Virus record (IMG/VR): IMGVR_UViG_3300011116_000920
Location: 4,368-68,367 of that record
Direction: 5' to 3' (one strand)
Length of the DNA: 64,000 nucleotides
From: a virus
Shown piece after piece: positions 14,289 to 32,125 of the stretch. The notes under the pieces are model-generated. The model had not been told where the DNA came from and did no database searches. It was given only the letters and a program-made list of their open reading frames with translations. Each line of letters opens with the position of its first letter. Position 1 is the first letter of the stretch. Both the position numbers and the translations under genes were made by a program.

Positions 14289-14483
14289 ATGTGATAGATG
14301 GCTGGGAATTAGATTAGATTAGTTCCCCGCCGGATTTTGCTAGGGCTGAGAGGAAAGAAGCCCGAGTAAATTTTTTGAGGCCTAAATAACGTATAATAGG
14401 TAAAATAAATAGGCAAATAGTTGATTTATTCAATTTTATTTTGTATTTTTGATTCATCGTTAATTAGTTAAATAAATCAAGTT

Positions 14484-15418: not shown

Positions 15419-15482
15419 GACAAAAGGGGTAGGCGAAAGCCTACCCTACCTTAACAAATTTTTAACTTTTAAATCATAAATC

Positions 15483-15719: not shown

Positions 15720-15921
15720 GAACAGCACAGAGCCAGGTCGGAGCGAATTTCGCTCCGGCAGGGCTTTGCCCTGCCTGAGTAAATTTTTGGCGGATCCGTT
15801 TTTAACATTTCTTTAACTAAAATAAGGAAAACATTAACATTTCATTAACTACTTGATACTGTTTTTTTGTTTATCTTTATAGTGCAGTCGCAATGAAGCG
15901 AAGGCGTTAAATAGACAGGTT

Positions 15922-16098
15922 ATGTATTTATTCATTTTAATTTTCGTTTTGGCTATTTGGTTTCCTATTAGTCTGTATGCTTTAATCCTTAACAGTGAAT
16001 CCGATGGAGACACTGTAAAAGAAACATTATTAAAACTTTATATGGGTGTTTCTGTATGGTTAATTTTGATTGTATCTTGCGTCGTACTAATAGTTTAA
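15922..16098 (+). CDS. small two-TM protein (58 aa, not in ORF track)
   Basis: MYLFILIFVLAIWFPISLYALIL...GVSVWLILIVSCVVLIV. Confidence 0.55.
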   Translation: MYLFILIFVLAIWFPISLYALILNSESDGDTVKETLLKLYMGVSVWLILIVSCVVLIV

Positions 16099-16184
16099 CA
16101 AAACATTAATATGGGAGGATTTTGATTCCTCAATTATCCTCCCTATATTTGCTTTATAATTTTAAACCACTAAAAACAAAAAAA

Positions 16185-16415
16185 ATGCCATCAAAAAAAG
16201 AAAAAATAGCAGCCCTAAAAACCCTTAATTCGGCTATTAAAAAAGCTATTTCAGAAAGTGGTAATTTAGATTTTAACGATTTTGTAGATTTGTCCTACGA
16301 ATTAGAAAATAAAATCTATAAGTATCAAGTAGTTTTTAGGATAAAACCTATGGAAAATATCCCGATTCCTGAAACGGACAATCCATCAAACGGACCGTAT
16401 ATTTCAGTTCACTAA
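16185..16415 (+). CDS. hypothetical protein, paralog of 16896-17132
   Basis: KK..LKTL.SAI.K..SE..NLDF.DF.D shared; start reassigned to MPSKK. Confidence 0.7.
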   Translation: MPSKKEKIAALKTLNSAIKKAISESGNLDFNDFVDLSYELENKIYKYQVVFRIKPMENIPIPETDNPSNGPYISVH

Positions 16416-16645
16416 TAAGGTTTAATACCCACTAAACGGAAATGTTTAGTGGGTATTCCTATGCCAGTGAATTTCGCTCAGGGCAGGGCGGAGCCCTGCC
16501 TGAGTAAATTTTTGGCGGATCCGTTTTTAACATTTCTTTAACTAAAACAGCGAAAATATTAACACTTATTAACTACTTGGTATTGTTTTTTTGTTTATCT
16601 TTGTGACGCAGTCGCAATGAAGCGAAGGCGTTAAATAAACAGGTT

Positions 16646-16834
16646 ATGAAAAGTATGATGTTGGAATCAAATGGAATTAGAATTGTCTTCTCTTTTGGCG
16701 GTAAAGTACGCGTCAACCAGTTAGGCAAGGAAGTTGAATCGGTAAACAATTTTTCCACGTTCAAGAAGTGGGCGAAGGGTATTTTATCCGATAGCCAAAT
16801 TAAAGTAGCGAAGGCTCAATTCAACCGTATGTAA
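16646..16834 (+). CDS. hypothetical early protein
   Basis: Cassette with promoter. Confidence 0.65.
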   Translation: MKSMMLESNGIRIVFSFGGKVRVNQLGKEVESVNNFSTFKKWAKGILSDSQIKVAKAQFNRM

Positions 16835-16895
16835 GATTTAAAAGCCCCTACGATTAAGTCGTGGGGGCAATTTTAAACCACTAAAAACTCAAAAA

Positions 16896-17132
16896 ATGGT
16901 AACTTTATCAGAGAAAAAAGGCACTTTAAAAACCTTACAATCAGCCATCCTAAAATCATATTCTGAAAACAAGAATTTAGATTTTACCGATTTTGAGGAC
17001 GCGGCTTTTGATTTACAAGTAGATATAGAAACAGAAGAGGACGAAATAGAAACGGAACGTAATTCATTCTATGCGGACTATCAACAAAGCATAGACGCTG
17101 ACTACTACGCATTCAGACAGTCGCAAATGTAA
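16896..17132 (+). CDS. acidic hypothetical protein, paralog of 16185-16415
   Basis: Shared N-terminal half. Confidence 0.7.
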   Translation: MVTLSEKKGTLKTLQSAILKSYSENKNLDFTDFEDAAFDLQVDIETEEDEIETERNSFYADYQQSIDADYYAFRQSQM

Positions 17133-17356
17133 AACTAATAGAATATTCCCGCCGAACGGACGGTTCGGTGGGTATTCCTATGCCAGTGAATTTCGCTCAG
17201 GGCAGGGCGGAGCCCTGCCTGAGTAAATTTTGGCGGATCCGGTTTTAACATTTCTTTAACTAAAATAGGGAAAACATTAACACTTCGTTAACTACATAGT
17301 ATTGATTTTATGCCTATATTTGCATCAGATTCTTTTACTACTTAAATTAACAAGTT

Positions 17357-18061
17357 ATGAAAATTTTCGGTTTTAATTTTATTTTAGGTCAGACAGTACA
17401 TTCAATCGACCTTAAATTGTCAGCGACTAAAAAACTTGGCGGTCGTCTTGTTGTGCAAACATACCACTATGATTTGCAACAAATTATAAACAATGACTTT
17501 ACTATGGATAAAGAAAATTGTTTAGATTGTCCTTTTAGTTATAACCAAAATAACGGTAAAAGCGGCGGCTGTTATACACATAAAGGCAATATGCTAAAAG
17601 GTCTAAAGTCTAAATTACGCTCTCTTAATAAGAGATATAAATTAGGCTTACTAACTTCGGACTATAGTGCGGTTTTACCTACATTATTCAAGTATGCAAG
17701 TAAAAAAGATATATCTTTAGTACGGTTTGGTTCTTACGGCGAAGCGGTTACATTGCCTTTAGATTTGCTAAACGGTTTATCCAAATTATCAAAGCGTAAA
17801 ACGGGTTATACGCACCAATGGAATAAGCCACAATATAAGGAATACGCTTCTTTATTAATGGCTTCGACGCACAATGTTTTTGAAGCAAATATAGCAAATG
17901 ATTTAGGCTTTAGGACATTCAATGTAGGCGCTATAGAAAACAGTATTATGTGTCCCTCATCACCAACTATAGAAAAGGATAAAAGGGTATCTTGTGCAAA
18001 TTGTGGCTTATGTGCGGGAAATTCAATAAAGGCAAAAAATATCTTTATTCCTAAACACTAA
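17357..18061 (+). CDS. Cys-rich putative Fe-S/Zn protein (DUF7227-like), paralog of 22922-23629
   Basis: CxDC..GGCY, RFGSYGE, TGYTHQW, MAST, CP...CxxCxLC. Confidence 0.7.
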   Translation: MKIFGFNFILGQTVHSIDLKLSATKKLGGRLVVQTYHYDLQQIINNDFTMDKENCLDCPFSYNQNNGKSGGCYTHKGNMLKGLKSKLRSLNKRYKLGLLTSDYSAVLPTLFKYASKKDISLVRFGSYGEAVTLPLDLLNGLSKLSKRKTGYTHQWNKPQYKEYASLLMASTHNVFEANIANDLGFRTFNVGAIENSIMCPSSPTIEKDKRVSCANCGLCAGNSIKAKNIFIPKH

Positions 18062-18146
18062 AAAAATGTAGGGGGAATGTTTGGAAATTTCAAATATTCC
18101 CCTTATATTTGATTTATAATTAGTTCACCACTTAAAAACAAATAAA

Positions 18147-18413
18147 ATGATAGTAAAATGTTTAGATGATTTTTTACCGTTAAGGAATGTAAACGATTTA
18201 GAATTTACGGTATTAAACAAAGAAACCGATGAAAAGCTTCTATGGTACATAGAAGATGTATTAGATGAAATAAATAGAGACAGGTCCGAAAAATGGATTG
18301 ATTATAGTAAGAATGATTGGTTTGAGGGATGGGCGGAATGGTGCGAAGATGATACATATACCATACTATCAATAGAGGACAAAGAAGATAAAGTATATAG
18401 ACCTTTCTTATAA
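18147..18413 (+). CDS. hypothetical protein, paralog of 30503-30778
   Basis: WYIEDVLDEINRDRS.KW.DY identical in both. Confidence 0.75.
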   Translation: MIVKCLDDFLPLRNVNDLEFTVLNKETDEKLLWYIEDVLDEINRDRSEKWIDYSKNDWFEGWAEWCEDDTYTILSIEDKEDKVYRPFL

Positions 18414-18645
18414 AGAAATAGTAACTTGTTTTTTGCCCCGTTGGATTCAGTGTCCGACGGGGATTTTTATGACCAGTAAATTTCGCTCAGGGCAGGGCGG
18501 AGCCCTGCCTGAGTAAATTTTGGCGGGGCGGATCTTAACATTTCTTTAACTATAATAGGGAAAACATTAACACTACCTTAACTACTTTGTATTTGTTTTA
18601 CCCTTATCTTTGCATCATATTCTTAACCACTCAAAATAAGTTATT

Positions 18646-19143
18646 ATGAAGTCAATTAATGAGTTTATCGCGGGTTTATCCTCAAAGAACACCTTTGCAG
18701 CTATCCAGTACGAGTCTTCAGCAGATAAGGTAGCAAAAAAGCTAACTTATGGTTGGTTGGCAGCCAATGGTATTTCTCGCGAAGAAGTACGTTGTATTAC
18801 TTTCCGCACTTGTCAGTTAGGTAGCACTTATAAGACAAGAGTAGAAAATAGAGAAGGCGAAGGCGTGGCTATAAATCCAGGTTGGGCAAGAGCCTTAGAC
18901 AACAAAGGGCATTTATTCGACAATCCAAAGAACCTTAAGAGATTCCTACGCGTGTTCTTAGTGCCAGGCAAACAAGTTACTTGGGGCTTTCCGGATGCAA
19001 CAACAGAACGGAACCGATTAGCCTTAGTTAAGAGAATGCAGGAAATAGAGCCGGAAACGGAATCCAATACGTTTGAAGTAAGAATGATTGAGTTGGAATG
19101 TATTCAGAGTTTAAAAGCAAAAGAAGTTTTTCAATTAGCGTAA
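18646..19143 (+). CDS. hypothetical early protein
   Basis: Cassette with promoter. Confidence 0.7.
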   Translation: MKSINEFIAGLSSKNTFAAIQYESSADKVAKKLTYGWLAANGISREEVRCITFRTCQLGSTYKTRVENREGEGVAINPGWARALDNKGHLFDNPKNLKRFLRVFLVPGKQVTWGFPDATTERNRLALVKRMQEIEPETESNTFEVRMIELECIQSLKAKEVFQLA

Positions 19144-19225
19144 AAAAAAGTAGGGGAATGTTTTGATATGTTAAATATTCCCCTTATCTTTGCAACATAT
19201 TAATCACTTAAATACTTAAAAAAAA

Positions 19226-19618
19226 ATGAACAAGGAAGGTTTAAAAATTTCGCTTACAAATGAATTAAGCGAAGAGATTTTTTTCAATGCTTTATGTAAT
19301 TCAATGGATTATATGTGTAGCTCTTATGGACTTGATTTAAAGTACAAAGAATCTGACTACCGTAAAGCTAAAGCTAAATTGAGTTCTCCATGTTTTGAAG
19401 ATGTTTTGATGCAGATGATAAAAGATGGAATGGTATTTGGAATTAAGGATTTAGAAGGGGGTGAGGATGATGTTTTTATTACATTAGAGAGTATACATGA
19501 AAGAGTTAAAAATGTTCCATTAGATCATTTGTTAGACATGATAAATGGAAATGATGATGCAACTACTGGCGATGTTGTTTTACAGACTGTTCTTTACAAT
19601 GAAATTATTTTTGGATAG
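19226..19618 (+). CDS. hypothetical phage protein (D..LQ..L..EIIFG C-terminus)
   Basis: DATTGDVVLQTVLYNEIIFG motif common in phage proteins. Confidence 0.7.
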   Translation: MNKEGLKISLTNELSEEIFFNALCNSMDYMCSSYGLDLKYKESDYRKAKAKLSSPCFEDVLMQMIKDGMVFGIKDLEGGEDDVFITLESIHERVKNVPLDHLLDMINGNDDATTGDVVLQTVLYNEIIFG

Positions 19619-19709
19619 GATTTAAAAAAGATGGGAGAATGTTTGGAAATGTAAAATGTTCTCCCTATCTTTGTATCATAATTATTTCACCACTTTAAAT
19701 TTTAAAAAC

Positions 19710-19961
19710 ATGAGCGCACCAAAAGGATGGTATCGAAATTTGATTAGTGATTCTAACATCAGAATTGCATTCACTCACTCACGGATTATTGGTTGTACAA
19801 TCGTTGACAACTCCAAAACTTTAGAGGATTTAGAGAAGTCAGAAGACCAATATGCACAATACTATATTGATGGACTGAAGTCTGGAAGTATGGTTACGAT
19901 TGTAGAGAATAATGTCATAGACAGATACTTTAAGAGGGGGGAACTTTATTTCCTTGGCTAA
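19710..19961 (+). CDS. hypothetical protein
   Basis: Start reassigned after promoter and leader. Confidence 0.65.
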   Translation: MSAPKGWYRNLISDSNIRIAFTHSRIIGCTIVDNSKTLEDLEKSEDQYAQYYIDGLKSGSMVTIVENNVIDRYFKRGELYFLG

Positions 19962-20046
19962 AAAAAAGATGGGAGAATGTTTGTATATACTAAATGTTCT
20001 CCCTATCTTTGTAGTATAATTGTTCATCACTTTAAATTTTAAAACA

Positions 20047-20292
20047 ATGCAGTATCAAATTAAAAGAGAATGTTGGAATGAGAAAACATTAAATGGATAT
20101 GTAGATAATCCATATTGGAAAATAGATTTAAATAATTTAAGTTTTGGACTAACAGATAATGGTTATTTGTGGGCGATAGGAGTAACGGGACATATTGCAG
20201 AAAATCAATGCAAAGTCTATAAAATGTATATACAAAAATTAATTAAGGAGTGTAAACTTAGTATTGATATTAATAACCCCGCGGAAAATTAA
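20047..20292 (+). CDS. hypothetical protein
   Basis: Start reassigned after promoter and leader. Confidence 0.65.
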   Translation: MQYQIKRECWNEKTLNGYVDNPYWKIDLNNLSFGLTDNGYLWAIGVTGHIAENQCKVYKMYIQKLIKECKLSIDINNPAEN

Positions 20293-20296
20293 TAAG

Positions 20297-20497
20297 ATGA
20301 AAAATAAGAAAAAATTATTTGATGAGATTGGGTATATCCAATTATACAAACGAGGTATGTGTATTACTATTTGGTATGAACGTACATATCATCAGTACTG
20401 GTATTATACTCAAAAGGAGGCAATCCGTTTGTTTAAAGAAAAATATGGAATCAAAGGTAAAGTAGAGAAAACTAATTTTTGTCCATACACATTTTAA
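20297..20497 (+). CDS. hypothetical protein
   Basis: ORF in operon. Confidence 0.55.
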   Translation: MKNKKKLFDEIGYIQLYKRGMCITIWYERTYHQYWYYTQKEAIRLFKEKYGIKGKVEKTNFCPYTF

Positions 20498-20527
20498 ATG
20501 CTCACCCACTTGAAAATATTAAATAAA

Positions 20528-20740
20528 ATGAATAACAAACATATTTGGGAAGGTTGGACTGTTCAAGATTTTATAAATGAACTTGAACCCACATTTAATA
20601 GAATTGTTAACGGCCATTCCTGGACAGCACCTTTTAAGAACAGCAAAGAATTAAAAGAGTGGCTTATGGATAATCAACCGTATTATAAGAAGCATATCCC
20701 TGAGGTATTTAATTACTTTAAGGAAAGACTAAAGATATAA
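20528..20740 (+). CDS. hypothetical phage protein
   Basis: IWEGWTVQDFI...NQPYYKK motif. Confidence 0.65.
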   Translation: MNNKHIWEGWTVQDFINELEPTFNRIVNGHSWTAPFKNSKELKEWLMDNQPYYKKHIPEVFNYFKERLKI

Positions 20741-21069
20741 TAACTTGTTTTTTTGCCCCGTCGGATTTAGTGTCTGGCGGGGATTTTTAGGATCAGTGAA
20801 TTTCGCTCAAGGCAGGGCAAAGCCCTGCCTGAGTAATTTTTGGCAGGACTCCTTTTTAACATTTCTTTAACTATTATGGGAAAAACATTAACACTTCATT
20901 AACTACTTGGTATTGGTTTTACCCTTATCTTTGTGGTGTTATTAAGAGAAAGGGTAAGCAAATAGAAAGGCAAAAAAGTAATTTAAAAAAAGTTTGCCTA
21001 AAATTTGGAAATTAGAAAACTACTCTTTATCTTTGCAAAAGATTCTTAACCACTTTAAATTTTTAAACT

Positions 21070-21795
21070 ATGATTCTTTCAGAAGTAAAAAGCGCAAACC
21101 TAAGCGCTAAGTATGTGGCTATCAGTTCACAAAAATTGATTAATGACCTTAAATCTAATGGGTTTGAACTTTCAGGCTTTCAGACCAAAAAGAAAGGTGC
21201 TAAAAGTTCCGCACACCTTATTAGAATGAGGTACAATAAGGAATTAATCTTAAAGGGTGAAACCTTATACCCCGAAGTTGTTATTCGTAATTCTTTTGAC
21301 GGAACGGTTGGGTTTGAATGTTCAATGGGAATATTTAGATTAGTATGCTCAAACGGACTAACTGTATCAGATTCAAGATTTGAGTCCAAGATTTACAAAG
21401 TAAAGCATTTCGGAAAAAAAGCAATGGATATTTCGGAAAAGGTTATTTCGGGTGAAATCGTAGCTAACTTTTTTGATTTGCTACCTAAACTTGAGGAATA
21501 TGTATTGCAGCAAATGTCTGTAAACTTGACCGAAGAAAAGGCTATTGAGTTTGCTATGAAAGCTGCTGCCTTGCGTTTTAAGAGAATCTTTACAGAAAAA
21601 GAAGCAAAAGTACTACTTGCTTCAGAAAGGTTTGCTGATGATGAAAATACCCTTTGGGCAATTCAGAACCGTATTCAAGAAAAATTGATTAATGGGTTTG
21701 CAGGTAGAAGAAAATATTCTGCTTTAAAAGACCCTAACAAAACTGCGGTTATCAATGAGAGGTTAGCTAATCTTTCTATGGAGTTCGCAAATTAA
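21070..21795 (+). CDS. DUF932/DUF945-family protein
   Basis: IRNSFDGT...GIFRLVCSNGL...TLWAIQNRIQE. Confidence 0.8.
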   Translation: MILSEVKSANLSAKYVAISSQKLINDLKSNGFELSGFQTKKKGAKSSAHLIRMRYNKELILKGETLYPEVVIRNSFDGTVGFECSMGIFRLVCSNGLTVSDSRFESKIYKVKHFGKKAMDISEKVISGEIVANFFDLLPKLEEYVLQQMSVNLTEEKAIEFAMKAAALRFKRIFTEKEAKVLLASERFADDENTLWAIQNRIQEKLINGFAGRRKYSALKDPNKTAVINERLANLSMEFAN

Positions 21796-21884
21796 TTTAA
21801 AAAAATGTGGGGGGATATTTGGATATGTCAACTATCCCCCATATATTTGCATCAGATTATTAATCACTTTAAAATGTCTTAAAA

Positions 21885-22049
21885 ATGGATAAGTATGTTT
21901 TAGTTTGTTGGCCGGAAAGTCAATTATTAATGGACGTGGAATGGTTCGATGAATGTATACTAATGAATGACATGGAGCATTTAGCTGACATAGGTTCTTC
22001 TGCCTACTTTGTTCCGGAGGATAGATATTTGGAATTAACAAGTAAGTAA
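21885..22049 (+). CDS. small hypothetical protein (54 aa, not in ORF track)
   Basis: MDKYVLVCWPESQLLM...GSSAYFVP after promoter and leader. Confidence 0.65.
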   Translation: MDKYVLVCWPESQLLMDVEWFDECILMNDMEHLADIGSSAYFVPEDRYLELTSK

Positions 22050-22131
22050 TAAAGATGAGGGAATGTTTGGAAATGTAAAATGTTCCCCCTATCTTTGCGC
22101 TATAATTATTCACCACTTAATATTTTAAATC

Positions 22132-22608
22132 ATGCACAATCTTCATTTAATTAGAACAAAAGCTGATTCTCATTCCGACGCTCTTAGTATTGTTGAAGAC
22201 TTTTTACAAAGTTGGGGTACTGAGAATAATTGGTCAACTGTATTGGGTTCTCATTGCAAAGAGGATAAATCATTTTCGGAACATTTTGACGAAAAATGGG
22301 TAACTAAGGATGAATTACTAAATGACCCAAATAGATTTGATTTCTTAACAGAGGTAAATGCCTACTATAAGGAAGCATTCCATAAGGTATCTAATTTAGG
22401 AGGTACTGTATTGATTAAACCTTTTGATTGGAGGGCTGCTGCTAAATACTGCAAAGAGCAATCTGAGATATCAAATCTTTTAGACCCTACTAAAGTTGAT
22501 ATATGGTCAGATACTTTCTACGAGTTTGATATTGACGAGCCTGGCATTACAGACCTATGTTATGATGGTGCTCTAACTTTCATTGTGTTGGTTGATATGC
22601 ACTCGTAA
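22132..22608 (+). CDS. hypothetical phage protein (MH...VDMHS ends)
   Basis: Cassette gene followed by a terminator. Confidence 0.7.
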   Translation: MHNLHLIRTKADSHSDALSIVEDFLQSWGTENNWSTVLGSHCKEDKSFSEHFDEKWVTKDELLNDPNRFDFLTEVNAYYKEAFHKVSNLGGTVLIKPFDWRAAAKYCKEQSEISNLLDPTKVDIWSDTFYEFDIDEPGITDLCYDGALTFIVLVDMHS

Positions 22609-22921
22609 ATAAAAACCCTCTTAGTGAAAGCTAAGAGGGTTTTTCTATGCCAGTGAATTTCGCTCAGGGCAGGGCAAAGCCCTGCCTGAGTAATTTTTGG
22701 CGGGATCCCTTTTTAACATTTCTTTAACTATACCAGGGAAAACATTAACACTCCCTTAACTACTAGGTATTGTATTTATGCTTATCTTTGCAGTGTTATA
22801 AAGAGAGAGGGTAAATAGAAAGGCAAAAAAGTAATTTAAAAAAAGTTTGCCTTAAATTTGGAAAATAGAAAAATACCCCTTATCTTTGCCAAAGATTTTT
22901 AACCACTTAAATAAACTTGCT

Positions 22922-23629
22922 ATGTTAAAGCAAATTAATTTCAGATTAGGCGACGTTATCCATTGCATAGATATCAAGCCTAGCGCTACGCCTAAGCTCG
23001 CTAAAAAAGGCGAAATTATCCTACAAACTTATCATTTTTCTATCGACCAGATTAATGAGGGCAGCCTAAAAAATGATTCCAAGGTGTGTTTTGATTGTAA
23101 GTTCTCTTACAATGCAAACGGTGGAAAATCAGGCGGTTGCTATACCCATGCGAACGGATCCTTAGCGTGGGGATTAATAGCAAAAGTAAAAGCTTTAAAG
23201 AAGCGTTTGGATAACGGATTAATTCCGGAGGGAACAAATGGGGTAATGGAACAAATTACAAGCGTTACAAAAAAGGTTAAAATATCCTTTGCTAGAATGG
23301 GAACGTATGGGGAGCCTACCTTATTACCTTTTGAATTGCTAGAACAAATAAGGCCTTTGGTTGGCAAGGTATCGGGATATACTCACCAATGGCATAAACC
23401 CGAAAATAAGCAATATGCAAAATACCTAATGGCAAGTACGCATAATATATTTGACGTAAAATTGGCCGAAGGTTTGGGATTTAGGTCTTACAATGCGAGT
23501 GAGGTTGAAGGTGCTATCCTTTGTCCATCAGCGCCAACCATAGCAAAGGAGAAGCAAGTAAGCTGCGCTAAATGTGGATTGTGTGAAGGTGGAAAGAAGG
23601 CTAAGAATATCTACAATGTAATCCATTAA
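22922..23629 (+). CDS. Cys-rich putative Fe-S/Zn protein, paralog of 17357-18061
   Basis: Same Cys and GYTHQW motifs. Confidence 0.7.
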   Translation: MLKQINFRLGDVIHCIDIKPSATPKLAKKGEIILQTYHFSIDQINEGSLKNDSKVCFDCKFSYNANGGKSGGCYTHANGSLAWGLIAKVKALKKRLDNGLIPEGTNGVMEQITSVTKKVKISFARMGTYGEPTLLPFELLEQIRPLVGKVSGYTHQWHKPENKQYAKYLMASTHNIFDVKLAEGLGFRSYNASEVEGAILCPSAPTIAKEKQVSCAKCGLCEGGKKAKNIYNVIH

Positions 23630-23714
23630 CATAATCTTAACATAGGGGGACTTGGTTTTATCAAATGTTCCCCCTATCTTTGCATCATATTAATAACCAC
23701 TTAAATTAAAAAAC

Positions 23715-24125
23715 ATGAAAAGGATTAAGGTTAGATTCTCTTTACAACGTGGAGAGAATTACATGAAATGGAGAGTCATTGGTAGCGATGGGGTTGTCAC
23801 ATATTACAATCCATGTGACGTTCAATTAATCATGAGAGGTTGCACGTTAAGGAACAATAAGAAATTAGCTACAAAGATTTACAATGGTGAAAGTACGAAG
23901 GTTGTATGTGCATGGATTTTATGTGATGATTTAGAGATTAGACATTCTGATTTTATTAAGGAATCTGATTTTAAAATTAAGTACAACCCTAAACTTGCTC
24001 CTCACTGGATGTTCCTGGGAGAGGATATAGATAATAGGAATATTTCTTACATTGTTTCGGTTGACTTTAAGTTATGTATTGATTTGATTCCCGATGCTAT
24101 GGGATTGGGAGGATATAAGAGTTAA
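23715..24125 (+). CDS. hypothetical phage protein
   Basis: KVRFSLQRGENYMKW...KVVCAWI...YNP motif. Confidence 0.7.
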   Translation: MKRIKVRFSLQRGENYMKWRVIGSDGVVTYYNPCDVQLIMRGCTLRNNKKLATKIYNGESTKVVCAWILCDDLEIRHSDFIKESDFKIKYNPKLAPHWMFLGEDIDNRNISYIVSVDFKLCIDLIPDAMGLGGYKS

Positions 24126-24234
24126 GAATTCCCCACGGAAAATTAACAAAACATTAACGATAGGGGGTATTGCATATTATATCCGATACCCCTATCTTTG
24201 CATCATAATTAATCACCACTTTAAAACAAAAAAA

Positions 24235-24531
24235 ATGGAAAACATTGAGCAGCCAATGGAAACTTTTGATTTTTTCCTTGACCAAAAAATAACTACATGG
24301 ATGCGTACTAGATTTAGCGTGGAAGCTACATCAAGAGAAGAGGCAATAGAGAAAGCTAAGAAGGAGTATGAGGAGTTATGCCGGGATGAATCTTGGGAGG
24401 AGATTCCGGACGTTCAAGAAACAATGACTGTAAGAGATAACGCTGGTTTTAGCACCGAAGAAGTTTACATAGATGAATTTCCTACAATTAAGATTTGGGA
24501 AAATGGCATGAACTCATTAGAAGATTTTTAA
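24235..24531 (+). CDS. hypothetical protein (VEA.S.EEA motif)
   Basis: Start reassigned to MENIEQ. Confidence 0.65.
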   Translation: MENIEQPMETFDFFLDQKITTWMRTRFSVEATSREEAIEKAKKEYEELCRDESWEEIPDVQETMTVRDNAGFSTEEVYIDEFPTIKIWENGMNSLEDF

Positions 24532-24619
24532 CAAAACATTAACGATAGGGATATTGCATAGTATATCCAATACCCTTATCTTTGCATCATAATTAATCAC
24601 CACTTTAAAACAAAAAAAA

Positions 24620-24877
24620 ATGGAAAAGAATTTAGAAATTAAAACTTTTTGGACTAATAAGGCTAAAGAAGTTCTTCTCGGTAGAAAAATTGTAGGTGTT
24701 AGATATCTAACCGACAAAGAAATGCAGACACTTGATTGGTATGAAAGGTCTGTTGTATTTGTTTTAGATAATGGTACTCTATGTTTTATAGCATCAGATG
24801 ATGAAGGTAATGGTGGGGGTAGTCTTCACTATTTTCTCAACAACGATGAATTTAATATCTTGCCTACATTATCATAA
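24620..24877 (+). CDS. hypothetical phage protein
   Basis: SDDEGNGGG motif. Confidence 0.7.
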   Translation: MEKNLEIKTFWTNKAKEVLLGRKIVGVRYLTDKEMQTLDWYERSVVFVLDNGTLCFIASDDEGNGGGSLHYFLNNDEFNILPTLS

Positions 24878-24905
24878 TTAATCACCACTTAAAAAACAAA
24901 AAAAA

Positions 24906-25136
24906 ATGAACTTTATTGAATTAACTGAATTAGACGGTACAAAATTTATTGCAAACATAAATCTCATACTAAGAGTTTATGTAAATAGTAAAGGTCTAAC
25001 CACGATTATTGATTTGAACACCACTTTGAACACCACAGGTTATCCAATCTATGTTGAGGAATCATACGCAGAGGTTATAGAGAAAATCTATACAGTTGAT
25101 ACTAATACTCTTAGACTTAAATATAAAAATCAATAA
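24906..25136 (+). CDS. FlbD-like small protein, paralog of 27454-27660
   Basis: MNFIELTELDG.KFI.NINLI..V...VEES..EV..KI. Confidence 0.65.
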   Translation: MNFIELTELDGTKFIANINLILRVYVNSKGLTTIIDLNTTLNTTGYPIYVEESYAEVIEKIYTVDTNTLRLKYKNQ

Positions 25137-25156
25137 CCACTTTAAAACAAAAAAAA

Positions 25157-25369
25157 ATGAAACACACTGTTAAGGTAGTATTTGGAAAAGAACAAGTCAA
25201 AAAACTTTACGAAGGTGAGACACTTACTGATGATGAGATTTATAGTAATGTACAAGAATATGATTTTGATACTTCAGCTGAAAAATCTGCTTTTATCAAA
25301 GGTCTATTTGAGTCTTTAGGATGGGAAGATATTTGTATTCCTGAACTTGAATTTAATCATAATAAATAA
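25157..25369 (+). CDS. hypothetical protein
   Basis: F.T.AE..AF.KG motif; leader motif. Confidence 0.65.
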   Translation: MKHTVKVVFGKEQVKKLYEGETLTDDEIYSNVQEYDFDTSAEKSAFIKGLFESLGWEDICIPELEFNHNK

Positions 25370-25389
25370 CCACTTTAAAACAAAAAAAA

Positions 25390-25557
25390 ATGTTAGTAGA
25401 ACTAAAGGAAATCTCAAGAAGAGATTTAGTAGAGGCTTTAGAGGAATTACTTTCAGATGAGTTTGATTCATCAGAACTTGTTTACTTGACCGAAGAAGAA
25501 CTCATTAGGTCTATAATCAATGCAGCTAAATTCTACAAAGAATCGTATAATAATTAA
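25390..25557 (+). CDS. acidic small protein (55 aa, not in ORF track)
   Basis: MLVELKEISRRDLVEALEELLSDEFD... after ACCACTTTAAAAC leader. Confidence 0.6.
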   Translation: MLVELKEISRRDLVEALEELLSDEFDSSELVYLTEEELIRSIINAAKFYKESYNN

Positions 25558-25567
25558 ATAAAAAGTA

Positions 25568-25641
25568 AGTCAGGTAGCTCAATGGTAAGAGCGGATGCAG
25601 TCGGGTAGGCGGTGCAGGTTCGATTCCTGCCCTGACTTCCA
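25568..25641 (+). ncRNA. tRNA-like RNA with intact acceptor, D and T arms and CCA but no anticodon stem
   Basis: AGTCAGG/CCTGACT, GCTC-AATGGTAA-GAGC, GCAGG-TTCGATT-CCTGC, T-CCA. Confidence 0.75.
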
Positions 25642-25699
25642 AAGGTTAATAGATGTTTAAGTGGTTTGGCTCCTGGCAGTAATGTCAGGAGTTTTTTTT
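25642..25699 (+). ncRNA. candidate sRNA (tRNA-like trailer) with anti-leader seed and terminator
   Basis: GTTTAAGTGGTT (25655) then GCTCCTGGCA-GTAA-TGTCAGGAGT-T8. Confidence 0.45.
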
Positions 25700-26037
25700 G
25701 TTGCTAGCAAATTTCGCTCAGGCAAGGCTTCGCCTTGCCTGAGTAAATTTTGCCGCTCCCCCTTTCCGGGATGGCCAGGGATCTATGGGGAAAATCCAGG
25801 CGTTAACATTTTTTAACATTTCTTTAAGATCCTTTTAACATTTGAAATTAGGATATTAGATAGATGGGATGTATCTTTGCAATGTCAATTAGATGATGGG
25901 GAATAGATGAGATATGGTATGGGTTACATTTTACTGCATTTCATTTTAACATGACTTTAACATTTTAGGATTAGGATATTAGATGGAATGTCATTATCTT
26001 TGCGACATATTATTAACCACTTTAAATTTTTAGAATC

Positions 26038-26610
26038 ATGCCAAATTGGTGTTCAAATTGTATCTCATTTGAAGGTAATGAGAAAGCTATGGAAACATTT
26101 AGAAAAGATGTTGCCAGTATTGAGGACGGTCATTGTATATTTACTGCATTGACGGATTATAAAGAAGAATGGAGCTATGATGCTTGGTGTAATGAGTTCG
26201 GCACTAAATGGAGTGTAACGATGGACGATGACATTAGACATTCAGTAGAAAACAATGATTACTTTAATTGTGAAACGGCTTGGAGTCCATGTACGGAATT
26301 TGTTAAGAAGGTATGTAAGAAGTACGGAATAGAAGGACGGATTGAATATTCAGAACCAGGGAATGACTTTGCAGGATTTGTATCTATTGATGTGGATGGA
26401 TGTATAGTAGATGAAGTAGTGATGTCTTGTAAGGAATATGAATATAAGCATTTAGATGTTGATTATTTATTTGAGAATTTTGTCGATGATGTTAAAGAAG
26501 GATTGATTGAAAGTGAGGAGGATGTAAGAGAGGAATATTCATTTGTTACTGAGGGAGATATGGAGAGATTGATTACATTGTATTATAATAATCTCCCCTC
26601 GAAAAATTAA
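26038..26610 (+). CDS. DUF1281/YubB ferredoxin-like domain protein
   Basis: MPNWCSN, FGTKW, ETAWSP, YSEPG.FAG. Confidence 0.8.
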   Translation: MPNWCSNCISFEGNEKAMETFRKDVASIEDGHCIFTALTDYKEEWSYDAWCNEFGTKWSVTMDDDIRHSVENNDYFNCETAWSPCTEFVKKVCKKYGIEGRIEYSEPGNDFAGFVSIDVDGCIVDEVVMSCKEYEYKHLDVDYLFENFVDDVKEGLIESEEDVREEYSFVTEGDMERLITLYYNNLPSKN

Positions 26611-26695
26611 CATAATATTAACGCTAGGGGTATTGCGTAGTAAATTCAATACCCCTATCTTTGCACTATATTCTTTACCACTAAACTAAAAAAAA

Positions 26696-27367
26696 ATGAG
26701 AGTTTTAATTGCGTGTGAGGAAAGCCAAGCAACAACAAAGGAATTTAGAAAGTTAGGACACGAGGCATTTTCTTGCGACTTACTACCGTGTAGCGGTGGC
26801 CATCCGGAATGGCATTTCCAATGCGACGTTTTCAAAGTAATAAATGAAGGTTGGGATTTACTGATTGGCCATCCACCTTGTACGTTCCTAACGGGAAGCG
26901 GTGTTCAATGGTTATCTAATCCCGAAGATAAGGACTTGCCTTTCGAAGAGCGTAGGCCTCATCCTAAGTACCCTAACAGAAGAAAGGATATGTTAGATAG
27001 CGTGGAATTTGTAAAGGCTCTTTATGATTCTAATATAAAACACGTTGCTATTGAGAACCCCGTTGGCTTATTGAGTAGCAGATGGAAGAAGCCTAATCAA
27101 ATAGTTCAGCCTTATATGTTTGGGGATGAGGCGACAAAGACTACTTGCTTATGGTTAAAGAACCTACCCGAATTAGAGCCTACGAACATAGTAGGTAAAG
27201 GTGAAAGAACATTTTTCAGCTCGGGTAAATCACACCCTAAATGGTATGCCGATGCTTTGAAGAATGCTAAGACTAAGCAAGAAAGACAGACGTTGAGAAG
27301 TAAGACATTCTTAGGAATGGCAGAAGCGATGGCTACTCAATGGTCAAAATACATAGAAGAAAATTAA
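26696..27367 (+). CDS. C5 cytosine DNA methyltransferase-like protein
   Basis: VLIACEES, HPPCT (PC), IENP, RSKTF.GMA.AMA.QW. Confidence 0.8.
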   Translation: MRVLIACEESQATTKEFRKLGHEAFSCDLLPCSGGHPEWHFQCDVFKVINEGWDLLIGHPPCTFLTGSGVQWLSNPEDKDLPFEERRPHPKYPNRRKDMLDSVEFVKALYDSNIKHVAIENPVGLLSSRWKKPNQIVQPYMFGDEATKTTCLWLKNLPELEPTNIVGKGERTFFSSGKSHPKWYADALKNAKTKQERQTLRSKTFLGMAEAMATQWSKYIEEN

Positions 27368-27453
27368 CAAAACATTAACGCTAGGGGTATTGCGTAGTAA
27401 ATTCAATACCCCTATCTTTGCACTAAATTATTCACCACTTTAAAACAAAAAAA

Positions 27454-27660
27454 ATGAACTTTATTGAATTAACTGAATTAGACGGTAAAAAATTTATTGG
27501 AAACATAAATCTCATACAAAGAGTTTATGTAAATAGTAAAGGTGTAACCGTGGTTATTGGTTGGAAAACCTCTGGTTATCCACACTTTATTGAGGAATCA
27601 TACGAAAAGGTTGTAGAGAAAATCAATGCGAGGTTAGCGGGTGTCAATAGACTTAAATAA
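27454..27660 (+). CDS. FlbD-like small protein, paralog of 24906-25136
   Basis: Near-identical N-terminus at DNA level. Confidence 0.65.
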   Translation: MNFIELTELDGKKFIGNINLIQRVYVNSKGVTVVIGWKTSGYPHFIEESYEKVVEKINARLAGVNRLK

Positions 27661-27686
27661 TTAATCACCACTTTAAAACTAAAAAA

Positions 27687-27875
27687 ATGAAAAAAGTCAT
27701 TGAAGGGAAAAGACCTGCTCCGATGAAGGATGAGAAGTACATCATCTTTAAGGGCGAGAGTATTGTAGGTACTGCAAATTCTCTTGCGAAAGCTTGGGAA
27801 ATCTACGATGGTCAAAAACCAAAAATCCGGATCCTTGACGGTCGGGCTATCTATAGAGCAATCCACGAAGAGTAA
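27687..27875 (+). CDS. hypothetical protein
   Basis: Leader motif before ATG. Confidence 0.6.
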   Translation: MKKVIEGKRPAPMKDEKYIIFKGESIVGTANSLAKAWEIYDGQKPKIRILDGRAIYRAIHEE

Positions 27876-27908
27876 AAATTAATCACCACTTTAAAACTAA
27901 AAAAAAAA

Positions 27909-28145
27909 ATGAACGAAGTAGAAAAGGCAAAAGCAGTATTAAGAGCGAATGGTTACTTTGTAGATAACCTATGGCATATCCAGGATGTACAAGCTAACTA
28001 CATGAAGGCTAGCGACGAAGAAGCTCAAAAGATTTTAAACATAGCGCTAACCAACGAAGCTACTATGGAACAAATATCGTTTGCAATTACCGATGCGATA
28101 GAGTCTTACTTTGATGATGAGTTAGATAACGATTACGAAGATTAA
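27909..28145 (+). CDS. hypothetical phage protein
   Basis: GYFVDNLWHI.DV motif; leader. Confidence 0.65.
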   Translation: MNEVEKAKAVLRANGYFVDNLWHIQDVQANYMKASDEEAQKILNIALTNEATMEQISFAITDAIESYFDDELDNDYED

Positions 28146-28232
28146 CATAATCTTAACGATAGGGGTGTTGCATATTATATCCGATACCCTTATCTTTGCA
28201 CTATATTATTTACCACTAAACTAAAAAAACAA

Positions 28233-28523
28233 ATGACAAGGGAATTCGTTGAGAGCATAGAGTCCAAGTTAAATATTAATTTCGGGTATTTTATCAGATG
28301 CGATGACGAGAGAGTACGTGTAAATCCTAATATCTCTACACCTAAAGGTATAGCTACTGACATGTACTTTCACCTTTGGGAAACCGAAAGGTTAATCTAT
28401 GCGTTGGAATTATTCGAAAAGCATAATTTAAACTATGATTTTGGGTTTCAGGAATGGGATGAGGAATCTCAAGAAATTGATGAAATACTGTACGTAGATA
28501 ATAATTACCTAAATAATTGTTAG
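28233..28523 (+). CDS. hypothetical protein
   Basis: Promoter and leader. Confidence 0.65.
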   Translation: MTREFVESIESKLNINFGYFIRCDDERVRVNPNISTPKGIATDMYFHLWETERLIYALELFEKHNLNYDFGFQEWDEESQEIDEILYVDNNYLNNC

Positions 28524-28607
28524 TAAAAAAATGTAAGGGAATGTTTGGATATGTTAAATACTTCCCCTATCTTTGCACTAAATTATTAACCACTAAACTA
28601 AAAAAAA

Positions 28608-29342
28608 ATGGGCGACCAAAAAATTAAGATTGTAGAAGATTTTGTATGGCTATTGATTACCGACAAAGCTAAGGAAGTTTACCAGTCGGGTTTATTTGAT
28701 GGTTCTATCTGTGCGCTACATGATGACGGTAGCGAGGATTTATGTGAGACCTACGAAGACCTTACCGAAGCATTAGAGAGAGGTCTTGAAATCGGGATAG
28801 AGGTTGGTCATATAAACAAACCAGAGCCTAAGAAAATAGAATGGTTTAATGACCTACGTAATTTAGATGTTAGGGAATTTAGGAACCTAGACCCTATTAT
28901 GGAAGCTAAGACAGATGAGGAGTGGGTTAGAGCAGGAGAGCAAGGCATTCCAGCTTGGTGCTACTACAACAATGACCCAGCGAACAACGAAATATTTGGC
29001 AAGCTATATAATTGGCATGCGGTAAATGATAAGAGAGGACTTGCACCAGAAGGATATAGAATCCCAACCATAAAGGAGTTAGATGATTTGTATATTAGTC
29101 CAGGTTATCCAGCGTCAGGGTGGCGTACTAAAATAACTAATTTCTGTAAACATCTTCACGGAAATTACTTCACTTGTTTTGATGGCCTTAGAGAAAGAAG
29201 TTTCATTTGGAGTTCTACGGAAGATGATATTGATACAGATTTTGCTTGGTACAGTTACTTTACAAGACACCACGATACTACTCAGGGCATAGACGTAAAT
29301 TACAAGTCAATGGGTGCATCGGTTATCTGCATCAAAGATTAA
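28608..29342 (+). CDS. Fibrobacter succinogenes major paralogous (FISUMP) domain protein
   Basis: PAWCYY, GKLYNWHAV, LAPEGYRIPT..E, WSST, GASVICIKD. Confidence 0.8.
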   Translation: MGDQKIKIVEDFVWLLITDKAKEVYQSGLFDGSICALHDDGSEDLCETYEDLTEALERGLEIGIEVGHINKPEPKKIEWFNDLRNLDVREFRNLDPIMEAKTDEEWVRAGEQGIPAWCYYNNDPANNEIFGKLYNWHAVNDKRGLAPEGYRIPTIKELDDLYISPGYPASGWRTKITNFCKHLHGNYFTCFDGLRERSFIWSSTEDDIDTDFAWYSYFTRHHDTTQGIDVNYKSMGASVICIKD

Positions 29343-29428
29343 CAAAATTTTAACATGGGGGGATTTGGATTTCTTGTTTATCCCCCCTATATTTGCATCA
29401 TATTATTCACCACTTTAAAACTACAAAA

Positions 29429-29722
29429 ATGAACGTTGACAGAAGTTCTTATTTATTCAAGATTGTTTCTTATCATGTATCAAACATCTGTAATGAAATT
29501 CTTAATGAGGATGATGAAAAATCAGAAAGGTACGGAACAAAGAAAGCTAAAGACATTTTAGAATACACTCACATGATGGGTTCATTTGAGTCAATCATGG
29601 AAAACTTAGATGCATTGACATGTAAGATAGTAGAGAATGTTCCTACCCACATCTTAGAAGGACATGATGAAATGTTATATGATTATGTTTTCATTAGTTT
29701 CTTAAATCACTTTTCAAAATAA
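29429..29722 (+). CDS. hypothetical protein
   Basis: Start reassigned after leader. Confidence 0.6.
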   Translation: MNVDRSSYLFKIVSYHVSNICNEILNEDDEKSERYGTKKAKDILEYTHMMGSFESIMENLDALTCKIVENVPTHILEGHDEMLYDYVFISFLNHFSK

Positions 29723-29727
29723 ACAAC

Positions 29728-29928
29728 ATGAGAAATAGTAAAGAATGGATAGCTGTCTTAAATGGCACAAGGATTGATTCTAATGGGTTCTACTGTGGTG
29801 CGGCCTGTGTTACCTCCTACAATAAGAAAGAGGCCATACGATTGCTCTCTAAGGCTAAGATGCATTACTTCGGCACCTATAAGATTAACAAGGAGGTTAG
29901 GAAGAATACAAACATCTACGCTAATTAA
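29728..29928 (+). CDS. hypothetical protein
   Basis: ORF in operon. Confidence 0.55.
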   Translation: MRNSKEWIAVLNGTRIDSNGFYCGAACVTSYNKKEAIRLLSKAKMHYFGTYKINKEVRKNTNIYAN

Positions 29929-30014
29929 CAAAATTTTAACATGAGGGGTATTGTATATATCATGTAAGCTCCTTATCTTTGTATCATATTATTAACCACT
30001 TTAAATTTTAAATC

Positions 30015-32057: not shown

Positions 32058-32125
32058 GAGCAAAGTTTAAGTGGTGCATTTTAGAAGGTGGGCTCTAACC
32101 TCCCCGGTTAACCTACCTTCCTTTT
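32058..32125 (+). ncRNA. candidate 3'-UTR sRNA with anti-leader seed
   Basis: CAAAGTTTAAGTGGTG (32061) then GAAGGTGGG...CCTACCTTC hairpin and T-tract. Confidence 0.35.

What the first reader, a model, noticed from the sequence alone, without database searches (positions are those of the whole stretch)
25568..25699. Candidate tRNA-mimic-released sRNA antisense to the shared leader of the early mRNAs
Seen: an anticodon-less tRNA-like element ends in CCA at 25641. It is followed by a 58-nt trailer containing GTTTAAGTGGTT (25655-25666) and a strong terminator. That seed is the exact reverse complement of AACCACTTAAA, the motif found ~10-25 nt before ~35 start codons; against the 12842 leader (AACCACTTAAATAT) it gives ~14 bp with one G-U. 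Read on the minus strand, the motif has no start codon behind it, so it is not a leader for an antisense gene. Known: RNase P/Z/E cut tRNA-like structures to release trailers, and gammaherpesvirus TMERs use tRNA-like leaders to release small RNAs. Inference: a single phage sRNA, made from an early operon, could pair with most early mRNAs as a global shut-off or activation switch. I do not know of a described phage system like this.
Basis: partly seen in the sequence, partly recalled or inferred. Interest (0 to 1): 0.88.

Follow-up and report, generated by a model that had tools for sequence, protein, structure and literature searches.

The report
Phage anti-leader RNA behind tRNA mimic
An uncultured phage tags about 36 early genes with one short sequence just before the start codon and keeps two conserved copies of its exact mirror image at the ends of early operons, one behind a crippled tRNA, which probably act as antisense RNAs on those genes, though no transcript has been seen.

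Summary
A tRNA-like element (25568-25638, degenerate anticodon arm) with an encoded CCA is followed by a 58-nt trailer. The trailer holds GTTTAAGTGGTT (25655-25666) just before a strong terminator. This 12-mer is the exact complement of the (A/C/T)ACCACTT(T)AAA leader. The leader lies about +10 to +20 in the mRNAs of about 36 early cistrons of a Bacteroidota-type phage.

New here:
- The seed is unchanged in 12 of 12 related contigs, and is the longest invariant run, while the terminator stem shows compensatory changes.
- A second intergenic copy (32065-32076, also before a terminator-like hairpin, no tRNA-like element) is kept in all 8 genomes examined.
- The tRNA-like element's anticodon domain is hypervariable.
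- An unrelated lineage (L031/L039) has a tRNA-like trailer complementary to its own start-site consensus.

Not shown: any transcript, any processing, or seed-leader covariation (the flank test was not significant).

Best reading: 3'-end antisense RNA modules that pair with the shared leader (about 0.6 for pairing in any mode, 0.4 for trans). "Released by the tRNA mimic" is only one option.

Unchecked notes from this scan report the same theme on other phage DNA, including a probable relative. My literature searches found no published description.

The parts
25390..25557 (+). Last ORF (55 aa) of the early operon. Its transcript would run into the tRNA-like element. No -7 box lies between this ORF and the element.
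25568..25638 (+). tRNA-like element. The acceptor stem (AGTCAGG/CCTGACT), D arm and T arm are intact, and the discriminator is T at 25638.
   Evidence: The acceptor, D and T arms are kept in all relatives.
25594..25609 (+). Remnant of the anticodon domain: 16 nt with no proper stem-loop. In close relatives this position holds unrelated inserts of about 37-85 nt.
25639..25641 (+). Genome-encoded CCA. It is CAA in L010.
25642..25654 (+). Spacer of the trailer. It extends the pairing with the AATCACTTAAATATTTAT class of leaders. A GAT is deleted here in the L007/L008/L265 lineage.
25655..25666 (+). Anti-leader seed 1, GTTTAAGTGGTT, the exact complement of AACCACTTAAAC.
25669..25699 (+). Intrinsic terminator: a 10-bp stem, a GTAA loop and a T8 run.
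   Evidence: One stem pair shows compensatory change in 2 of 7 sequences.
32065..32076 (+). Anti-leader seed 2, GTTTAAGTGGTG, the complement of CACCACTTAAAC. It begins 8 nt after the stop codon (32055-32057) of the epimerase gene.
32084..32125 (+). Terminator-like hairpin followed by CTTTT, belonging to module 2.
   Evidence: 3 pairs show compensatory changes.
8326..30005 (+). Early region whose cistrons carry the leader (A/C/T)A(C/T)CACT(T)(T)AAA 10-25 nt before ATG. Examples: 12820, 13461, 13774, 22901, 25368, 26015.

Best explanation
The 12-nt stretch is one of two conserved anti-leader elements that act as RNA.

Proposed mechanism:
- Both elements are transcribed at the 3' ends of early operons, in the single-stranded stretch just 5' of an intrinsic terminator.
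- They base-pair with the shared leader that sits in the translation-initiation region of about 36 early cistrons.
- Pairing would cover the ribosome-loading region of mRNAs in a host that has no Shine-Dalgarno pairing, and so damp or time early protein synthesis. An effect on mRNA stability is the alternative.
- The most likely form is a stable 3' fragment acting in trans. At 25.6 kb the tRNA-like element supplies either an RNase P / 3'-processing site that frees a roughly 58-nt RNA, or a structured 5' cap of a roughly 131-nt RNA running from the tRNA-like element through the seed to the terminator.

What is shown: the complementarity, conservation, position, unpaired state and recurrence of the element.
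What is inferred: transcription, processing, pairing in vivo and the direction of the effect.
For: 1. Exact 12-nt complement of the genome's dominant motif. AACCACTTAAA is found 4 times against 0.07 expected.

2. Two intergenic copies with unrelated hairpins, each 2-8 nt before a terminator(-like) stem.

3. Conservation.
- Seed 1 is kept in 12 of 12 contigs with enough upstream sequence: the window, 6 IMG/VR contigs and 5 metagenome contigs.
- Seed 2 is kept in 8 of 8 genomes, and is tandemly duplicated in one.
- In both alignments the seed is the longest invariant run: 12 of 73 columns and 15 of 87 columns. The flanks vary and the stems show compensatory pairs.
- The neighbouring 190-aa protein is only 61-73% identical across the same relatives.

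4. The leader is in the mRNA. The -7 box lies 14-16 nt upstream in 18 of 26 copies. Transcription starts 4-5 nt after the box (PMC6847099, passages read). Five internal-cistron copies have no box.

5. Pairing strength.
- 20 of 55 early start regions hold 8 or more contiguous complementary bases to trailer 1, against 3 for the reversed trailer. None of 170 locus strands from other phages reaches this.
- 22 of the 40 best of 168 start regions carry the leader, which 29 of the 168 have in all.
- Mean duplex energy is -12.7 kcal/mol, against -8.05 (sd 1.45) for 200 shuffled seeds, none of which reaches it.
- The best sites are 18 bp (three G-U pairs) reaching the AU of the AUG at 13477, and 16 bp at 12842.

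6. Seeds end in T, G or A (the A in the G002 duplicate). This is the position where leaders vary A/C/T.

7. At the three C positions of leader variants, 11 of 13 changes are C to T, which keeps a G-U pair with the seed. This is my tally of the rows, and the variants are paralogous.

8. An unrelated lineage, L031/L039, has a tRNA-like element followed by a conserved trailer and a terminator. The trailer complements that lineage's own start consensus GGTTATGAA in 13 of 39 own start regions. Other loci average 2.4%, and 1 of 170 reaches this level.

9. RNase P is known to cut off terminators 3' of the last tRNA of an operon, and to mature the phage C4 antisense RNA (PMC11143913, passages read).
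Against: - No transcript, 5' end or 3' end was seen. Only assembled contigs of relatives were available, and RNA-library contigs did not cover 25576-25770.
- There is no covariation. Seed and leader core are the same in all relatives. The one lineage with a changed seed flank shows no significant preference of its leaders for its own seed (p 0.08 and 0.14).
- The commonest leader form (ACCACTTT, 12 of 27) is not the perfect complement; ACCACTT accounts for 8 of 27.
- Energies are only about 1.7 sd better than random AU-rich windows, which average -8.05 (sd 2.8).
- A 12-bp duplex is short, and Bacteroidota lack Hfq (recalled).
- A distant lineage with another shared leader (L269, 13 copies) has no anti copy in its 8.4 kb.
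- 6 of 9 other tRNA-like trailers with terminators show no start-site complementarity.
Confidence: 0.4

Rival explanations
1. Same RNA-RNA pairing, but in cis. The anti-leader at the 3' end folds back on a leader of its own transcript. This would close the mRNA into a loop and silence one cistron, or protect the ends. No free small RNA is made.
For: - The MFE and centroid folds of 25355-25700 pair the leader at 25368 with seed 1 (-84.5 kcal/mol, z -2.76).
- Module 2 has no processing signal.
- The transcription unit that ends at module 2 seems to start with the leader at 29994.
Against: - Long-range pairs in an MFE fold are unreliable, and that fold breaks the conserved tRNA-like arms.
- For module 2 the nearest canonical leader is 2 kb away.
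- Cis pairing does not explain why the seeds match the family consensus rather than the local leader, which is the TTT form at 25368 and 29994.
Confidence: 0.2
2. The motif is a double-stranded DNA site: a phage regulator's operator, or a phage-specific promoter/initiator core. The two reversed copies are extra binding sites at operon ends. Complementarity to the mRNA leader is then a by-product.
For: - The motif lies close to promoters in 18 of 26 cases.
- CATAAT-like sequence precedes it even at internal cistrons.
- In a distant lineage (L285) a leader-like 8-mer and its complement flank a -7 box like an operator.
Against: - Strand bias is extreme: 36 ACCACT on + against 11 on -, and only 2 of the 11 extend to the motif.
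- The reversed copies keep only the 12-nt core and none of the conserved upstream ATT..T context.
- Both reversed copies sit exactly in the unpaired stretch before a terminator, which a DNA site does not predict.
- Leader variation is mostly C to T (11 of 13).
Confidence: 0.12
3. The conserved trailer serves the tRNA-like element or the terminator itself, for example as a 3'-processing or RNase site, a pause signal or a protein-binding site. The match to the leader has no function.
For: - The whole 25560-26040 intergenic region is conserved more than its neighbouring genes.
- tRNA 3' trailers carry processing signals (PMC11143913 passage).
Against: - The same 11-mer recurs at 32065 with no tRNA-like element and a different hairpin.
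- In both modules the seed, not the rest, is the longest invariant run.
- From base composition I estimate the chance of one such 10-mer within 20 nt of about 12 terminators at about 5e-4. This is my own arithmetic, not a tool result.
Confidence: 0.12
4. It is the leader of a minus-strand gene, or an ordinary decaying tRNA pseudogene with a chance match in its trailer.
For: On the minus strand a TTG follows the motif at the normal 22-25 nt spacing and opens a 38-aa frame.
Against: - That frame is 10-70 aa long and unrelated in sequence in 9 genomes.
- There is no -7 box on the minus strand; the only TTTG-like site there is lost in relatives.
- The acceptor, D and T arms are kept in every relative while only the anticodon domain is replaced.
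Confidence: 0.03

Closest known systems
3' external transcribed spacer of the E. coli glyW-cysT-leuZ tRNA operon (3'ETS-leuZ)
   Same: It is a regulatory RNA made from the stretch between the last tRNA of a transcript and its intrinsic terminator, and it acts by base pairing. Details are recalled. I saw the topic only in the search listing and abstract start of 10.1101/2021.04.25.441314.
   Different: - It sponges host small RNAs rather than mRNA leaders.
- It is a host element, not a phage one.
- It sits behind a real tRNA.
- It depends on Hfq.
- There is no sequence relation.
C4 antisense RNA of phages P1/P7 (and the CI RNA of satellite phage P4)
   Same: It is a phage-encoded small antisense RNA cut from a longer transcript by RNase P. 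It pairs with repeated target sites near ribosome-binding sites in the phage's own operon. RNase P processing of C4 is stated in PMC11143913 and in its reference to Hartmann 1995 (passages read).
   Different: - C4 and CI control one immunity operon of temperate elements, not about 36 cistrons of a lytic-type early region.
- No Rfam family other than tRNA matched the window at the gathering threshold.
- C4 is not followed by its own seed plus terminator arrangement.
3'UTR-derived small RNAs of bacteria (e.g. CpxQ, SdhX; recalled)
   Same: Module 2 has the typical layout: a conserved seed in a 3'UTR just before the mRNA's terminator.
   Different: - Those RNAs target a few unrelated mRNAs and are Hfq/RNase E dependent in Proteobacteria.
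- Here the target is a leader shared by the phage's own early genes.
tRNA-miRNA-encoded RNAs (TMERs) of murine gammaherpesvirus 68
   Same: A viral tRNA-like element that cannot decode is used as the 5' module of a transcript from which small regulatory RNAs are released by tRNA-processing enzymes. The mechanism is recalled; I saw only search listings.
   Different: - TMERs are eukaryotic Pol III units.
- Their downstream parts are pre-miRNA hairpins acting through RISC.
- There is no homology.
T4 RegA / RegB (recalled)
   Same: This is the functional analogue: one phage factor acts on the initiation regions of many early mRNAs to shut early translation off.
   Different: RegA and RegB are proteins (a translational repressor and an endoribonuclease), not an antisense RNA.

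Membership tests
Canonical decoding tRNA | Acceptor, D and T arms of a cloverleaf | tested here: met
   Rfam tRNA scores 48.2 bits with these arms aligned. The MFE fold forms them.
Canonical decoding tRNA | A 5-bp anticodon stem with a 7-nt loop, conserved among relatives | tested here: not met
   16 nt are left unaligned. ARAGORN reports 'tRNA-???' with a 4-base anticodon. The domain is replaced by unrelated inserts in relatives.
tRNA-operon 3' spacer RNA (3'ETS type) | Lies between the last tRNA(-like) gene of a transcript and its intrinsic terminator | tested here: met
   No -7 box lies between ORF 25390-25557 and the element.
tRNA-operon 3' spacer RNA (3'ETS type) | Released as a discrete stable RNA by tRNA or RNase E processing | not testable with these tools
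   Only assembled contigs of relatives were on hand, so no read ends were available.
tRNA-operon 3' spacer RNA (3'ETS type) | Base-pairs with defined partner RNAs | tested here: inconclusive
   Complementarity and predicted energies favour pairing. Covariation is absent, and binding was not tested.
3'UTR-derived small RNA | Conserved unpaired seed in a 3'UTR directly before the terminator | tested here: met
   Module 2. Module 1 is analogous.
C4 antisense RNA family (Rfam) | Sequence and structure match to the family model | tested here: not met
   cmscan of the whole window at the gathering threshold gave only 4 tRNA hits. The permissive scan of 25400-26100 gave only sub-threshold chance-level hits.
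Bacteroidota sigma-A promoter plus SD-less initiation (context of the leader) | A TAnnTTTG -7 box upstream, and an A-rich start region without a Shine-Dalgarno sequence | tested here: met
   There are 74 TAHHTTTG boxes on the + strand against 30 (sd 5) in shuffles, and 18 of 26 leaders have one 14-16 nt upstream. The leader consensus ends in A-rich sequence before ATG. The family features come from passages of PMC6847099 and PMC9723704.

The most novel reading that the evidence does not exclude
Large Bacteroidota phages run a private post-transcriptional circuit. Every early cistron carries one universal ribosome-loading leader. Anti-leader small RNAs mature from operon 3' ends, here with a decoding-dead tRNA used as the processing or stabilising module. 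They accumulate and switch the whole early gene set off, or hand it over, in one step. Different phage lineages would use different leader/anti-leader pairs, and the window family and L031/L039 would be two examples.
Probability: 0.3. Interest if true: 0.85.

Novelty: new variant of a known kind. Interest (0 to 1): 0.68.

Why it matters
If the pairing is real, this would be a phage that times a whole gene class with an RNA rather than with proteins such as T4 RegA/RegB. It would do so in a host phylum where translation starts without Shine-Dalgarno pairing and where riboregulation is poorly known.

It would also give a function to two puzzling features:
- the strikingly uniform leader of the early cassette genes;
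- the many decoding-dead tRNA look-alikes in such phages (at least 174 copies in the 120 IMG/VR stretches fetched).

The system is small and testable, because a 12-nt seed, a 12-nt leader and a reporter would suffice. It could also serve as an orthogonal translation switch for Bacteroidota.

Tried and rejected
- **Expression.** The look-up of sequencing runs gave 14 runs, all with small shares. I laid X1, X9, X2 and X6. All are assembled contigs of relatives. RNA-library contigs end at 25575 and restart at 25769-25771, leaving the tRNA-like element and trailer uncovered. The two RNA runs belong to one study, and contigs cannot show ends. This is no evidence either way.
- **Seed/leader covariation.** The only seed-flank variant (GAT deletion, G003 lineage) was tested own seed against foreign seed over 35 and 31 leaders. 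It was not significant (p 0.08; pooled 0.14).
- **More distant relatives with the same system.**
  - The epimerase query returned the same family (7 loci).
All but the known family look like chance hits.
  - The profile search of the 190-aa protein in metagenomes kept 80 loci. Only 6 are close relatives, 5 of which have upstream sequence. The distant ones use other leaders or none.
- **General test on other tRNA-like trailers.** Only 10 of 174 copies have a trailer plus terminator. Of the 9 outside this family, 3 show own-locus start-site complementarity (L031, L039, L053) and 6 do not. No extended target was found for the L031/L039 trailer in their whole records.
- **Other minus-strand ACCACT sites.** The one I checked, at 39174, lies inside an ORF. 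The others listed do not extend to the motif.
- **Host 16S complementarity of the leader.** This could not be tested. The control genomes of the genome search give no loci, and I did not type rRNA sequence from memory.
- **Rfam.** Nothing but tRNA at the gathering threshold. Sub-threshold hits such as anti-hemB (18.6 bits against a 49.5 cut-off) were dismissed.
- **Literature.** I searched the motif strings (58 papers, none relevant among the 15 listed), tRNA-like/bacteriophage/RNase P terms and phage-encoded sRNA/early genes terms (9 papers, listings only). None describes a shared-leader/anti-leader system. Supplements were closed and were not consulted.

Full report
**What the window is.** The window is 64 kb of a 68,367-base IMG/VR virus record that CheckV rates as 41% complete. 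GC content is 33.6%. It carries tail-fibre, protease, endolysin-like and RNA-ligase genes. No close relative was found among deposited phages; only a methyltransferase gene matched, at 69-74% identity. Two features point to a Bacteroidota host, which is an inference:
- The -7 box TAHHTTTG occurs 74 times on the + strand and 25 times on the - strand, against 30 (sd 5) in shuffles.
- Start codons are preceded by A-rich sequence without a Shine-Dalgarno motif.

The family features behind that inference are TTTG/TAnnTTTG promoters, transcription starting 4-5 nt after the box, no SD, and stimulatory adenines upstream. I took them from passages of PMC6847099 and PMC9723704.

**The observation.**
- ARAGORN reports 25568-25641 as 'tRNA-???'.
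- Rfam's tRNA model scores 48.2 bits with acceptor, D and T arms aligned. Sixteen unaligned bases (25594-25609) take the place of the anticodon arm, and the single-sequence fold agrees.
- CCA is encoded at 25639-25641.
- The trailer 25642-25699 holds GTTTAAGTGGTT at 25655-25666, then a 10-bp hairpin and T8.
- AACCACTTAAA occurs three times on + and once on -, the latter at this site, against 0.07 expected.

**The leader.** Aligning 26 ACCACT copies between 8.3 and 30.1 kb gives a clear consensus. I dropped two copies, at 17463 and 25020, because they lack the context. The consensus reads TAtcTTTG, then 14-16 nt, then (A/C/T)ACCACT(T)(T)AAA, then A-rich sequence, then ATG.
- Eighteen of the 26 have the -7 box at that distance, so the motif starts about ten bases into the mRNA.
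- The other eight have no box. Five of them (24884, 25136, 25369, 27667, 27885) precede internal cistrons. The motif therefore goes with the start codon, not with the promoter.
- Anchoring on promoters instead adds ten variant leaders such as AATCACTT, AACTACTT and CATCACTTT, giving about 36 in all.
- At the three C positions of the core, 11 of 13 changes in these variants are C to T, which would keep a G-U pair with the seed. This is my tally of the rows. Several variants are paralogues, so the hint is weak.

**Relatives.**
- The downstream 190-aa protein found six IMG/VR contigs at 61-73% identity.
- A profile of that protein found six close metagenome contigs, five with enough upstream sequence.
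- All 12 genomes, counting the window, keep the tRNA-like element's acceptor, D and T arms, the seed and the terminator.
- In the alignment of seven trailers, the seed is the longest invariant run (12 columns). The spacer has a 2-column gap (bases lost next to the seed) in one lineage. The base after the seed varies. One stem pair changes on both sides in 2 of 7 sequences. The consensus fold leaves the seed unpaired.
- The intergenic DNA as a whole (mean column identity 90%) is better kept than the neighbouring protein.
- CCA and the first acceptor pair are lost in L010, which keeps the seed.

**A second module.** Searching the relatives for the motif showed a second reversed copy at a fixed distance in every genome.
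- In the window it is GTTTAAGTGGTG at 32065-32076. It begins eight bases after the stop codon of an NAD-dependent epimerase gene (Pfam PF01370, E 3.5e-52). It lies before a different hairpin and a short T run.
- It is present in 8 of 8 genomes and is tandemly duplicated in one, where the extra copy ends in A.
- In the alignment of eight copies, the block CAAAGTTTAAGTGGT (15 columns) is the longest invariant run. I left out L028, which is identical to L027 here. Three stem pairs show compensatory changes.
- No tRNA-like element precedes it.

**Pairing numbers.**
- Duplex energies of 27 strict leaders with trailer 1 average -12.7 kcal/mol. Random 35-nt windows give -8.05 (sd 2.8). 200 shuffled seeds give -8.05 (sd 1.45), and none reaches the real value.
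- Of 168 crude start regions in the window, 29 carry the leader. Twenty-two of these are among the 40 best-pairing.
- Twenty of 55 early start regions hold at least 8 contiguous complementary bases to trailer 1, and 16 of 55 to trailer 2. The reversed trailers give 3 and 5. None of 170 locus strands from other phages reaches these fractions.
- The strongest sites are the start regions of the genes at 13477 (18 bp with three G-U pairs, up to the AU of AUG) and 12842 (16 bp).
- Against this, the commonest leader form has three Ts (12 of 27) and pairs only with a bulge.

**What could not be shown.**
- Expression: the runs on offer were assembled contigs of relatives, and RNA-library contigs do not cover the tRNA-like element and trailer. 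This says nothing either way.
- Covariation: seed and leader core are identical in all relatives. The one lineage with a changed seed flank shows no significant preference of its leaders for its own seed.
- The cis alternative stays open. A fold of 25355-25700 pairs the leader at 25368 with the seed.
- A minus-strand gene is excluded. The TTG frame behind the reversed motif is 10-70 aa and unrelated in nine genomes.

**Wider context.**
These hold 174 copies with enough downstream sequence to score. Most have a Leu/Ser-type D arm, the same AGTCAGG acceptor and an unrelated 40-90-nt middle. Most stand directly before an ORF.
- Only 10 of the 174 have a trailer plus terminator.
- Of the nine outside this family, L031 and L039 share a conserved trailer whose complement contains GGTTATGAA. 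That is the start consensus of their own genes: 13 of 39 and 5 of 34 own start regions match, other loci average about 2.5%, and 1 and 5 of 170 reach these values. L053 shows a similar enrichment. Six show none.
- This is a small, independent sign that lineage-specific anti-start trailers behind tRNA-like elements recur.
- Earlier unchecked notes of this scan describe the same theme on other phage DNA, including a probable relative (e1-6041880). I treat them as leads, not as support.

**Verdict.** The anti-leader is a real, recurrent, selectively kept feature.
- The best-supported mechanism is RNA-RNA pairing with the shared leader. I put about 0.6 on pairing in any mode, 0.4 on a trans-acting 3' fragment and 0.2 on cis.
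- The tRNA-like element is plausibly the processing or stabilising module of the first copy. RNase P removal of terminators behind distal tRNAs and RNase P maturation of phage C4 RNA are precedents (PMC11143913 passages; PMC4176162, abstract start only). It is not required for the module as such.
- A DNA-site reading (0.12) and an unrelated role of the trailer (0.12) are not excluded.
- In kind it is a new variant of 3'-end-derived antisense regulators. My searches found no paper describing a phage leader/anti-leader system.

Noticed in passing
window 25594-25609; L005-L010, L264-L266: The anticodon domain of the tRNA-like element is hypervariable. At least six unrelated versions (16 to about 85 nt) occur among genomes whose flanks are about 90% identical. 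One version (L005) has a perfect Val-type (GAC) anticodon arm plus a 50-nt insert. It looks like a cassette site rather than decay.
   Followed up: partly
L030-L149 (IMG/VR stretches): A very large family of tRNA(-like) genes shares the acceptor AGTCAGG/CCTGACT and the T arm, with variable middles. Some 'cargo' types are shared between phages (e.g. L032, L048, L052). Most stand directly before an ORF, like punctuation marks.
   Followed up: partly
L031:9831-9860 (+) and L039 (minus strand, behind the tRNA-like element): Two different phage contigs share the trailer ACAACTGCTTCATAACCAGTT between a tRNA-like element and diverged terminators. Its complement contains GGTTATGAA, the start consensus of their own genes. 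No longer target was found in the whole records.
   Followed up: partly
window 25872-25990; also 20926 and 22783: A good -7 box (TATCTTTG) has no leader and no ORF behind it. It is followed by about 110 nt of strongly conserved non-coding sequence and then a second promoter with a leader. This is either a tandem promoter or a further small RNA.
   Followed up: no
window 12700-12740, 18470-18520, 20795-20840, 22650-22695, 25705-25750: A repeated hairpin (..AATTTCGCTCAGGSCAGGGC-loop-GCCCTGCCTGAGTAAWTTTT) sits right after terminators, followed by TTAACAT boxes and the next promoter. The early region is built of repeated inter-operon modules.
   Followed up: no
L026:11013-11182 (record G002): Module 2 (seed plus hairpin) is tandemly duplicated. 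The extra copy ends GGTA, the complement of the TACCACTT leader variant.
   Followed up: partly
window 30255-30275 and 30482-30502: Two start regions carry a split form of the leader, CACC(G/A)CGAAAAACTTAAAA, as if six bases had been inserted into the motif.
   Followed up: no
L269, L280, L285 (metagenome contigs with distant homologues of the 190-aa protein): Other lineages use other shared leaders. TAAACCCTTAT occurs before 13 starts in 8.4 kb of L269, and AAACCCA(A)T occurs in L280. In L285 the 8-mer TAAACCAA and its complement flank a -7 box like an operator, and a further complement copy lies before a terminator.
   Followed up: partly
window 44203-45336 (+): An RNA ligase 1-type gene (phrog_968, E 2.4e-59) lies in a phage full of tRNA and tRNA-like genes. 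This could be a tRNA repair function against anticodon nucleases.
   Followed up: no
window 30787-30857 and L005:6240-6314: The neighbouring tRNA with acceptor AGCAAGG is a fairly normal tRNA-Ile(TAT) in the window. Its counterpart in L005 is called 'tRNA-???', so a second tRNA locus in this family also loses its anticodon arm.
   Followed up: no
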